This document shows positions 21,001-24,000 of a DNA stretch of 64,000 nucleotides, one piece after another; positions within the stretch are counted from its first letter, which is position 1, and every line of letters begins with the position of its first letter. Where the stretch lies: NCBI RefSeq assembly GCF_013167455.1, contig NZ_CP038328.1; one strand, 5' to 3'. The position numbers are program-made. The stretch is from Escherichia coli O157:H7. GTDB taxonomy: Bacteria; Pseudomonadota; Gammaproteobacteria; Enterobacterales; Enterobacteriaceae.

Positions 21001-24000
21001 TTTAAGGGATAATTTAAGTAATTTTTAGATTTCAATAAAAAAATATAAACATTAAAACTCAGCATGAATAATAAACATCAAATCTTATATACATTTAAGT
21101 AGTGATGTATCACGTAAAAATATAGTCATCATAGATGTTATGCAGTACGCACAAAAAAACAGACTGGATTTGCTTGCTGATCTATAATCTTTATCTAAAT
21201 TACTATTGGCGCTTTGGATAATAACATAAGCATATATTACCTCCTAGCAATAATAGATATAACCTCATATCAAGGTGTCACTGGTAAATAATCGGATAAA
21301 AGACAGTACCGGTCGGCACATAGAGCTTCTTCTATTTCACCAGAAGTGCACAGCAGGGAACTACCAATCACACGGTTAGTGTCATGGGTGGAGGATGCGT
21401 CCCGTTCTTTCCCTATAACGGGGATACGCAGTTTTTATCAGTACATGCAGAAAAACCCCTAATTCACATCACTGCAGAAAGCATTTAATAGAAATATACA
21501 TCGTTTAAGAATTTCAATTAAATCAAGATTATTCTTAAAAATCAGATAATTCAGATTTGCATTTTTAGGAAATTATACTATAGTGCACTTAATGTTCTTG
21601 CCTTTATTTTCTGAGTAATACTGGATTTGTAATACACAACTAAGGTATAAAATGTAATGATCTACATTATAAATGATGAAGTAAGATTCAACTCATCATC
21701 TAATAAGTTAACATCACTCCTTACATCAGAGGAAGTGATACTCACTTATCCTGCGGGAAAATGCTTAAAGTTACTTTTAGATAACGCTTATAGTGTCGTG
21801 TCACACAATCAATTCTTTGAAAAAGTCTGGAGCGATAGCAGTGCCGATGTCGCAACCAACACTTTATATCAAAATATATCGATGATAAGACGTTCTTTTC
21901 GTGAAATCAGCTCAGCGACGATATTTAATGATGTTATCAGAACGGTGCCCCGTAAAGGCTTCAAAATCAATGAAGAAATCAGCATAACTGTTCTCGACAA
22001 TAATCACAATGAGAATGAAAGTGTTGAGAGTGAAGAGAATGGTACCCACACTGAAAATATAAATAAAAATCACATTGCAAAAGGTATATTTACCACAAAG
22101 AATACATTACTTATAGTTTGTTTTTTTGCGGCATGGGGGATAGTGTATATATCTTCTTATTTTTTCGATATGGCTTTTCAAAGCAAATCCCACACTATAA
22201 AAAAAATAGATGCTTTCTCAAATTATGCTCAACACCCTACTCAGGAAGGATGCAGTTATTTCTATGATAATAAATACTTTAATTCCGTAGACATGTTATC
22301 ACCGATTATTGAAAAATTGCAGAAGATGGAAATTAACTGCAAAATACATCCTTACATTTACATTGCAACAAATGATAGCATGAGCGGATTTTATGCTTTC
22401 ACCTGTAGTCAGATGTTAAACTCTGAATCACCAAATAATTGCAACTCTCTCTATTATAAAGCGGAGTAATCATATGACTCAAAGATATTTTCTGTTTGCG
22501 GGAATAATTTTATGTGCTTTTATTGCAGCAATTCTGAGCCATATTGCGTTTCATCATGCCAATGAACCAGCAGAGCAAAACATATCATGTAATGCCCATG
22601 TTATTAATTTCACCGATCATACAAAAATGGATCAATATTTTTCGTTAAATATGATTTCTGAAAATAACACAGGAAACATGTATCTCACGGGCGCATACAC
22701 GGTAGATGGAAAAAAGATAGGCTTCATCCGCCGATATGTGAGTTTTACATACAAGAAATTCCGTGATACCGTTTACTTCACCACTGTTAAAATACAAAAA
22801 ATACAAAAAGATGATAACATTAGTGATGAAATCCTTGAAAATATCACTTCTGATTTTTTCATAAAAGTTGACACCTCAATTAATTTTTATGTTACACGTC
22901 AAAATGATTACAACTACGTATTCTCTACAGGCAGGACACCACGCTTCATATGTATTTCCCACTAACAGCATTGTTGCTCCTGGCGTTTGTCACCAGTTAA
23001 TAACCTTCTGATGGCTTTGTTTATATTTTAAGGCAATAAAAAACCATTCCAATATTGGTTAATTATTTATCTGTTTACATACCATTGATAAAACTCTGTC
23101 GCTTTCATTGGTTTTGCATATAAGTATCCCTGAACTAATGTCACGTTATTATGAATAAGATATTCCGCCTGGTGAGAGGTACTGACACCTTCTGCAATCG
23201 TTATCAAATTGAGTCGATTACTCAGCTTAATAATAATATCTAAAACAGGCGTTTCGTCTTCCGCTGTAGTGAGCGTGTCTATAAAGCTTTTATCTATTTT
23301 AAGATAATCAACAGACAACTTTTGCAGAAGGCCAAGGGAACAATATCCCGTGCCAAAATCATCAACTGCAAATTCACAGCCATGGCTCCTTAATTCATTT
23401 ATTTTCTGTAATGCATGATCAGTATCTTCAACCAGATTGCGTTCGGTAATCTCAAGGACAATGTTAAATTTATCAGATATTGCATTTTTTATATGTAAAA
23501 CATCAGCAACAAAATCAGGATGTGCAAGATGTTCAGCGGCAATATTTATCCCAAGGTGAAACGGCTTTTTCACTTTCCAGCTTTGTACATCCTGAATAAT
23601 CAGTTCAAAGAGATGCTTAGTTAACGGTATAATTAAATTTTCCTCTTCTGCAGCGCGGATAAAAACTACCGGAGATATATTTTTACCATCTTCGCGTTGC
23701 CAACGCATTAACGCCTCAACCCCCAGACACGCTTTGGTTGTCGTGTCACATACTGGTTGATAATGCACAGAAAATTCTCCGGATGACATTCCTTTCTTAA
23801 TTTCTTCTGCCAGGGACATTTTCCGAGATATCCAGCGCTGCCATAAGAAGTACAGGATAAAAGAAAGAAGAATAGATAATGGAAGAATGTAAAATACATT
23901 ACTAATGACATAGGGATATAATGAAATCATCGGCGTAGTAACTGTAAGACTAGCCTGACTGATCGCAGAATTAAAATCTTTTTTTAACATATATAACCTG

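What the first reader, a model, noticed from the sequence alone, without database searches (positions are those of the whole stretch)
21657..22965. ToxR/ToxS-like membrane regulator pair inside the island
A winged-helix, single-TM regulator is followed 5 bp later by a small TM-anchored periplasmic protein, the same layout as ToxR-ToxS and yqeI-yqeJ. It sits between the adhesin operons and the c-di-GMP genes, so it is a plausible island-encoded activator of the fimbrial or TPS promoters.
Basis: partly seen in the sequence, partly recalled or inferred. Interest (0 to 1): 0.6.

Follow-up and report, generated by a model that had tools for sequence, protein, structure and literature searches.

The report
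Known GrvA/FidL ToxR-like regulator pair

Summary
Two same-strand ORFs lie at 21657-22469 (270 aa) and 22474-22965 (163 aa), 4 nt apart. They are 100% identical to E. coli O157:H7 Sakai ECs_1274 (grvA) and ECs_1273 ("FidL-like protein") in O-island 47.

GrvA is a published regulator of LEE and GAD acid resistance, and the cassette was already classified as a VtrA/VtrC-like co-component system (PNAS 2022). The architecture claim is therefore supported and already known.

The idea that the pair activates the neighbouring fimbrial or TPS promoters is untested. I found only circumstantial support. A Pseudocitrobacter contig keeps the same TpsA, fimbrial, SDR, regulator-pair order without the c-di-GMP genes. 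A 32% relative also sits near a fimbrial operon. Interest is low.

The parts
21657..22469 (+). [not shown]
22474..22965 (+). FidL-like / YqeJ-family partner gene (ECs_1273). A 163-aa protein with an N-terminal signal-anchor TM helix (residues ~3-29) and a periplasmic 8-stranded lipocalin-like barrel with conserved Cys39 and Cys160.
   Evidence: 100% identical to Sakai ECs_1273 'FidL-like protein'. Cluster members carry precomputed Pfam PF27292 (YqeJ_C) and PF15941 (FidL_like) and the source name 'FidL'. 21% identity, E 4e-17, to K-12 YqeJ. 30% identity, E 8e-26, to Salmonella FidL. 79 representatives at E<=1e-3. C39 is invariant and C160 at least 90% conserved in 66 sequences. AF2 pLDDT 95. 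Foldseek top PDB hits are ToxS 8u2f and 8alo_B and VtrC 5kew and 5kev.
22455..22476 (+). Junction of the two genes: a GGAG Shine-Dalgarno inside the end of grvA, the TAA stop, a 4-nt spacer and the ATG. This arrangement is consistent with co-transcription and translational coupling.
   Evidence: Read directly from the sequence. No terminator-like site lies between the genes. Relatives overlap by 4-8 bp (K-12 yqeI/yqeJ; L004; L007).
21520..21553 (+). Conserved patch in the grvA promoter region, holding two direct repeats TCA(A)GAT(T/A)ATTC about 20 bp apart. The first repeat overlaps an RcsB-box-like CAAGATTATTCTTA (21524-21537). -35/-10-like hexamers follow at 21550-21584. This is a candidate RcsB or autoregulatory site (inferred).
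   Evidence: It is the only segment of the 678-bp upstream intergenic region alignable to the Pseudocitrobacter locus (85% over 34 bp) and lies at the same distance from the ATG. The RcsB-box match has 3 mismatches and is not above chance in the window. The promoter-like hexamers are at chance frequency. RcsB binding to the grvA promoter is reported in reviews of Morgan et al. 2016.

Best explanation
This is the grvA/fidL-like operon of O-island 47 of E. coli O157:H7. It is a ToxR-family 'co-component' signal-transduction cassette, paralogous to YqeI/YqeJ and MarT/FidL. GrvA is an inner-membrane-tethered transcription factor with its winged helix in the cytoplasm and a small disulfide-bonded sensor domain in the periplasm. 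The co-translated FidL-like protein is anchored beside it and contributes a lipocalin-like barrel. By analogy with ToxR/ToxS and VtrA/VtrC (inferred, not shown here), the two periplasmic domains form a heterodimer that stabilises GrvA and/or binds a small hydrophobic gut signal. That would control how actively the cytoplasmic domain binds DNA. The published outputs of GrvA are RcsB- and bicarbonate-dependent activation of ler/LEE and adherence, and repression of the GAD acid-resistance regulators gadW and gadE in exponential phase. Its direct DNA targets are unknown.
Confidence: 0.85

Rival explanations
1. The primary, direct job of GrvA/FidL is to switch on the adhesin module it travels with: the six-gene chaperone-usher fimbrial operon and/or the divergent TpsA/TpsB pair. 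On this view the LEE/GAD effects are secondary cross-talk. It can coexist with the best explanation.
For: In Pseudocitrobacter sp. RIT415 the order TpsA, 207-aa ORF, five fimbrial genes, SDR, GrvA-like, YqeJ_C is conserved, while the right flank is PTS/SIS sugar genes instead of the EAL/dgcT genes. The 32% relative P0018 also sits about 2.6 kb from a chaperone-usher operon. L008 keeps a remnant of the 444-aa fimbrial gene upstream of its orphan YqeJ_C gene. There is precedent within the family: MarT/FidL activates the adjacent misL adhesin gene (PMC9214523; context). The published GrvA effect on gadE is described as indirect and requires GadE, GadW and RcsB to reach LEE, so no direct target is on record.
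Against: I found no experimental evidence for it. The repeat conserved in the grvA promoter does not recur in the 1.4-kb tpsA-fimbrial intergenic region, and motif hits in the window are at chance level. Synteny could simply reflect en bloc inheritance of an island. Between the two genera the structural genes are 74-88% identical but GrvA and FidL only 49-50%, so regulator and targets do not look tightly co-evolving. The fimbrial operon starts with its own 207-aa ORF, which may be its dedicated regulator.
Confidence: 0.3
2. The 163-aa protein works independently of GrvA, for example as a periplasmic lipid-binding protein linked to the convergent CSS-EAL phosphodiesterase, and is merely adjacent to grvA.
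For: In L008/L009 a YqeJ_C gene (33% identical) has no wHTH gene upstream but is directly followed by a convergent CSS-motif EAL gene, the same arrangement as 22474-22965 and 23067-24677 here.
Against: The 4-nt spacing or overlap with the wHTH gene is conserved in four other loci. In Pseudocitrobacter the pair is kept without any EAL gene. The L008 locus looks decayed, with only a remnant of the fimbrial gene. The solved homologous folds, ToxS and VtrC, are obligate partners of their regulators (PMC9214523).
Confidence: 0.07
3. The cassette is an inert evolutionary remnant, comparable to the yqeI/yqeJ ETT2 remnant in K-12.
For: It is AT-rich (33-34% GC against 48% for the window), as expected of horizontally acquired DNA. 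One review reports that deleting the whole of OI-47 raised type III secretion, which is opposite to the expected loss of an activator.
Against: Both ORFs are intact in about 407 of 410 genomes that carry them. Every conserved cysteine and the wHTH motif are retained. Published grvA deletion and overexpression both give phenotypes.
Confidence: 0.03

Closest known systems
[not shown]
   Same: This is the same locus. The proteins are 100% identical to the Sakai genes and have the same neighbours.
   Different: Nothing differs. Relative to strain PV15-279, the window has only a 1-bp indel in the upstream intergenic region.
YqeI/YqeJ (E. coli K-12 and O157, ETT2 region)
   Same: The domain order, lengths (269 and 160 aa) and gene order are the same. 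All four periplasmic cysteines of the regulator and the N- and C-terminal cysteines of the partner are shared. Identity is 32% (E 2e-38) and 21% (E 4e-17).
   Different: It is a paralogue at a different locus. yqeI and yqeJ overlap by 8 bp, whereas here there is a 4-nt gap. It is preceded by the LuxR-type yqeH. Its function is unknown.
MarT/FidL (Salmonella SPI-3)
   Same: The cassette is the same type, with 29% (E 8e-43) and 30% (E 8e-26) identity, and it lies next to an adhesin gene. MarT activates the adjacent misL (PMC9214523).
   Different: The neighbour is an autotransporter rather than fimbrial or TPS genes. The published GrvA targets are LEE and GAD, not a neighbouring gene.
ToxR/ToxS (Vibrio) and VtrA/VtrC (V. 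parahaemolyticus)
   Same: The architecture matches: a wHTH, one TM helix and a small alpha/beta periplasmic domain, plus a TM-anchored lipocalin-like barrel partner. ToxR is the best solved relative of both GrvA domains, and ToxS and VtrC are the best solved matches of the partner.
   Different: The partner shows no detectable sequence similarity to ToxS or VtrC, with 7-14% identity in the structural alignments. The GrvA periplasmic model lacks the C-terminal helix of ToxR and VtrA (also noted in PMC9214523). The cysteine pattern differs. The ligand is unknown, whereas ToxRS and VtrAC bind bile salts.

Membership tests
ToxR-family membrane-bound transcription factor (ToxR/TcpP/CadC/VtrA type) | N-terminal cytoplasmic OmpR/PhoB-type winged-helix DNA-binding domain without a receiver domain | tested here: met
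   Pfam Trans_reg_C covers residues 25-103, E 3.7e-11, and is the only domain found. The best PDB sequence hits are ToxR DNA-binding domains 8b4b, 8b4c and 7nmb, E ~1e-6. NCBIfam gives weak hits to CadC and HilA/EilA, all far below the curated cut-offs.
ToxR-family membrane-bound transcription factor (ToxR/TcpP/CadC/VtrA type) | A single transmembrane helix separating the cytoplasmic and periplasmic parts | tested here: met
   There is one hydrophobic segment, 149-170 (KD19 up to 2.03), and no other. This is hydropathy only. Membrane insertion was not tested experimentally.
ToxR-family membrane-bound transcription factor (ToxR/TcpP/CadC/VtrA type) | Periplasmic sensor domain with the ToxR/VtrA alpha/beta fold | tested here: met
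   [not shown]
VtrA/VtrC-type co-component system (Kinch et al. 2022), YqeI/YqeJ-MarT/FidL subgroup | An adjacent same-strand downstream gene for a TM-anchored periplasmic lipocalin-like barrel (ToxS/VtrC/FidL/YqeJ) | tested here: met
   The spacer is 4 nt. Cluster members carry PF27292 YqeJ_C and PF15941 FidL_like. The AF2 model has pLDDT 95 with a TM helix and 8 strands. ToxS and VtrC are the top seven Foldseek PDB hits, TM-score 0.57-0.70 on the target.
VtrA/VtrC-type co-component system (Kinch et al. 2022), YqeI/YqeJ-MarT/FidL subgroup | [quoted passage not shown] | tested here: met
   C39 is invariant and C160 at least 90% conserved in 66 partner sequences. C199, C228, C250 and C262 of GrvA are invariant in 44 sequences. 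Only cysteine conservation was tested, not disulfide formation.
VtrA/VtrC-type co-component system (Kinch et al. 2022), YqeI/YqeJ-MarT/FidL subgroup | Sequence homology of both components to named members | tested here: met
   GrvA against YqeI gives E 2e-38 and against MarT E 8e-43. The partner against YqeJ gives E 4e-17 and against FidL E 8e-26.
VtrA/VtrC-type co-component system (Kinch et al. 2022), YqeI/YqeJ-MarT/FidL subgroup | Periplasmic heterodimer of the two components, with ligand binding that controls activity | not testable with these tools
   Only a published AlphaFold complex model exists for GrvA/FidL, together with a published report that the YqeI/YqeJ periplasmic domains form a dimeric complex when co-expressed (PMC9214523). 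No ligand is known.
ToxS (Vibrio) at the sequence-family level | Detectable sequence similarity to ToxS | tested here: not met
   Neither phmmer nor a 66-sequence profile against all PDB sequences found ToxS or VtrC, even at E<=10. The resemblance is at the fold level only, so 'ToxS-like fold' is justified but 'ToxS orthologue' is not.

The most novel reading that the evidence does not exclude
GrvA/FidL may be the dedicated sensor-regulator of the uncharacterised OI-47 adhesin module (the chaperone-usher fimbriae ECs_1276-1281 and/or TpsA/TpsB ECs_1282-1283). On this reading its lipocalin partner senses a gut lipid or bile-type signal, and the known LEE/GAD effects are downstream cross-talk. 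The fast divergence of the three putative regulatory genes (49-56% identity), against 74-88% for the structural genes, would then reflect host-specific retuning of the signal.
Probability: 0.25. Interest if true: 0.45.

Novelty: already known. Interest (0 to 1): 0.15.

Why it matters
GrvA links envelope and bicarbonate sensing (Rcs) to the choice between acid resistance and attaching-effacing adherence in a major food-borne pathogen. Its partner's lipocalin-like pocket is a plausible receptor for an unknown gut signal. That importance is already recognised in the literature. This re-analysis only confirms the classification independently and adds comparative hints. The open questions are the ligand, the direct DNA targets, and whether the neighbouring fimbrial or TPS genes are among those targets.

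Tried and rejected
1. Pfam and NCBIfam scans of the 163-aa protein found nothing. The installed Pfam lacks PF27292, and family membership came from precomputed annotations and pairwise or profile searches instead.

2. Sequence searches of the partner against PDB, as a single sequence and as a profile, found no ToxS or VtrC.

4. The RcsB-box consensus scan gave a 3-mismatch site at 21524-21537 that is not above chance in the window.

5. The conserved promoter repeat TCAGATAATTC was searched across the window and in the yqeI, marT and L007 upstream regions. It showed no enrichment and no copy near the fimbrial or tpsA promoters.

6. The Rfam scan of 20900-23100 gave only a sub-threshold chance hit. 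The 5' intergenic region is single-copy and island-specific.

7. My first per-gene identity table against Pseudocitrobacter used an offset wrong by 1 bp and so compared out-of-frame translations. I discarded it and redid it.

8. The 207-aa ORF was tested as a YqeH/EcpR-type regulator. The pairwise E-values of 0.26-0.7 are not significant.

9. The primary GrvA papers could not be opened.

Full report
**What is there**

The window is a stretch of the E. coli O157:H7 chromosome. Positions 21400-23100 are 100% identical to many O157:H7 genomes.

RefSeq annotation of a matching genome gives the local gene order:
- a TpsA/TpsB pair;
- a divergent six-gene chaperone-usher fimbrial operon;
- an SDR oxidoreductase on the minus strand;
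- a "winged helix-turn-helix domain-containing protein";
- a "hypothetical protein";
- a convergent EAL gene;
- dgcT, then pgaABCD.

The TAA stop and the next ATG are separated by 4 nt. A GGAG lies 8 nt upstream of the second start, and no terminator-like site lies between the genes. Both genes have 33-34% G+C, against 48% for the window.

**Identity**

In the Sakai reference genome the same genes are ECs_1274, gene name grvA, and ECs_1273, "FidL-like protein". The window's translations are 100% identical to both. This is O-island 47.

- it activates ler/LEE and adherence;
- it needs RcsB and responds to bicarbonate;
- it represses gadE in a gadW-dependent way, described as indirect.

Kinch et al. 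[quoted passage not shown] They also present an AlphaFold model of the GrvA/FidL periplasmic heterodimer.

**Independent tests of the architecture: GrvA**

- **DNA-binding domain.** Residues 25-103 match Pfam Trans_reg_C (E 3.7e-11). The closest solved sequences are ToxR DNA-binding domains (E about 1e-6).
- **Membrane segment.** There is one hydrophobic segment, residues 149-170.
- **Family.** GrvA aligns end to end with K-12 YqeI (32% identity, E 2e-38). It also aligns with a 285-aa Salmonella protein that its mgtCB...misL context identifies as MarT (29%, E 8e-43). A profile search finds 295 relatives in Enterobacteriaceae.
- **Cysteines.** The four periplasmic cysteines are invariant across 44 non-redundant C-terminal domains.

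**Independent tests of the architecture: the partner**

- **Family.** Relatives carry Pfam YqeJ_C and FidL_like. The protein is 21% identical to YqeJ (E 4e-17) and 30% identical to Salmonella FidL (E 8e-26). An exhaustive search finds 79 cluster representatives.
- **Cysteines.** In 66 aligned sequences Cys39 is invariant and Cys160 nearly so. These are the N- and C-terminal cysteines that Kinch et al. predict to form a disulfide.
- **Fold.** Its AlphaFold2 model (pLDDT 95) is a TM helix plus eight strands. The seven best Foldseek matches among solved structures are ToxS (8u2f, 8alo) and VtrC (5kew, 5kev, 8dml).
- **Limit.** At the sequence level there is no similarity to ToxS or VtrC. "ToxS-like" holds for the fold and the gene arrangement, not for orthology.

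**Mechanism**

What I showed here is the domain architecture, the family membership, the conserved cysteines, the conserved pairing of the two genes in five loci (and this window), and close coupling of the ORFs.

What I take from the literature is the regulatory outputs (LEE, GAD, Rcs dependence) and the predicted heterodimer.

What I infer by analogy with ToxR/ToxS and VtrA/VtrC is the following. The barrel docks on the C-terminal strand of the GrvA periplasmic domain. It stabilises the regulator and/or binds a hydrophobic signal, and so sets the activity of the membrane-tethered winged helix. No ligand or direct DNA target is known.

**The functional guess about neighbouring adhesin promoters**

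This claim could not be tested here, but comparative data bear on it.
- A Pseudocitrobacter sp. RIT415 contig carries a GrvA-like/YqeJ_C pair that tblastn puts at 50% and 49% identity. It sits in the same order as here: TpsA, a 207-aa ORF, five fimbrial genes, SDR, regulator pair. Its right flank holds PTS/SIS sugar genes instead of the EAL/dgcT genes. The pair therefore belongs with the adhesin module, not with the c-di-GMP genes.
- A 32% relative lies about 2.6 kb from another chaperone-usher operon.
- MarT/FidL sits beside misL, which it activates.

Several points weigh against a tight link.
- Structural genes are 74-88% identical between the two genera, while GrvA, FidL and the 207-aa ORF are only 49-56% identical.
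- The one conserved patch of the grvA promoter has no counterpart in the tpsA-fimbrial intergenic region.
- The published GrvA phenotypes concern LEE and GAD.

I rate this reading as possible, at about 0.25-0.3, and compatible with the main explanation.

**Other checks**

- The cassette is present in 410 of 5426 complete E. coli genomes. Of these, 332 are at least 99% identical, 76 are 95-99% identical and 2 are 90-95% identical.
- The carriers include O145 strains and isolates from chicken, a blackbird and the environment.
- This is somewhat broader than the "O157:H7, O55:H7, O145:H28" distribution given in a review.
- No Rfam family matches the region.

**Verdict**

The architectural interpretation is supported and coincides with published work. 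The proposed local target is untested. The feature is already known, so interest is low.

Noticed in passing
window 13417-14040 (+): A 207-aa ORF heads the OI-47 fimbrial operon (ECs_1281) and has no Pfam or NCBIfam hit. Its residues ~131-176 repeatedly line up with the C-terminal LuxR/GerE helix-turn-helix of K-12 YqeH, of the EcpR_N protein next to misL in SPI-3, and of an EcpR_N+GerE protein in L008. The E-values (0.26-0.7) are not significant. It may be a very diverged EcpR/YqeH-type fimbrial regulator, a kind that often accompanies YqeI/MarT-type cassettes.
   Followed up: partly
window 8214-22965 versus L004 1-11303 (Pseudocitrobacter sp. RIT415): The whole TpsA, fimbrial, SDR, GrvA, FidL module is syntenic across genera. 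TpsA, the fimbrial genes and the SDR are 74-88% identical in protein sequence, whereas GrvA (50%), FidL (49%) and the 207-aa ORF (56%) have diverged much faster.
   Followed up: yes
L008 6460-10009 and L009; window 22474-24677: In another enterobacterial genome an orphan YqeJ_C gene (33% identical to the FidL-like protein) is directly followed by a convergent CSS-motif EAL gene, as in this window. A 62-aa remnant 56% identical to the 444-aa fimbrial protein lies upstream, and no wHTH gene is present. This is either a decayed relative of the right end of OI-47 or a recurring FidL/CSS-EAL association.
   Followed up: partly
window 21520-21553: This is the only conserved patch of the grvA upstream region between O157 and Pseudocitrobacter. 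It holds two direct repeats TCA(A)GAT(T/A)ATTC about 20 bp apart, at the same distance (-114/-115) from the ATG. The first repeat overlaps an RcsB-box-like sequence. It could be the reported RcsB site or an autoregulatory site.
   Followed up: partly
window 20187-20978 (-): The SDR gene next to grvA is KduD-like, scoring 295 bits against a curated cut-off of 369. In K-12 the true kduD lies about 5 kb from yqeI/yqeJ. This may be coincidence or a trace of a common ancestral neighbourhood.
   Followed up: no
window 23067-24677 (-): The convergent 536-aa EAL protein matches the NCBIfam cyclic di-GMP phosphodiesterase model PRK10551 below its cut-off (314 against 461 bits). It is annotated as a diguanylate phosphodiesterase (ECs_1272). 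From my own recollection this is the VmpA phosphodiesterase of O157:H7, which I did not verify here.
   Followed up: no
window ~21037: There is a 1-bp indel relative to strain PV15-279 (NZ_AP018488.1) in the SDR-grvA intergenic region. The window is identical there to TW14359 and EDL933.
   Followed up: yes
(E. coli genomes): One of the 410 copies of the cassette lies on a record classed as a plasmid. About 78 genomes carry copies below 99% identity, among them O145 strains and isolates from chicken, a blackbird and the environment. This is wider than the O157:H7/O55:H7/O145:H28 distribution stated in a 2024 review.
   Followed up: no
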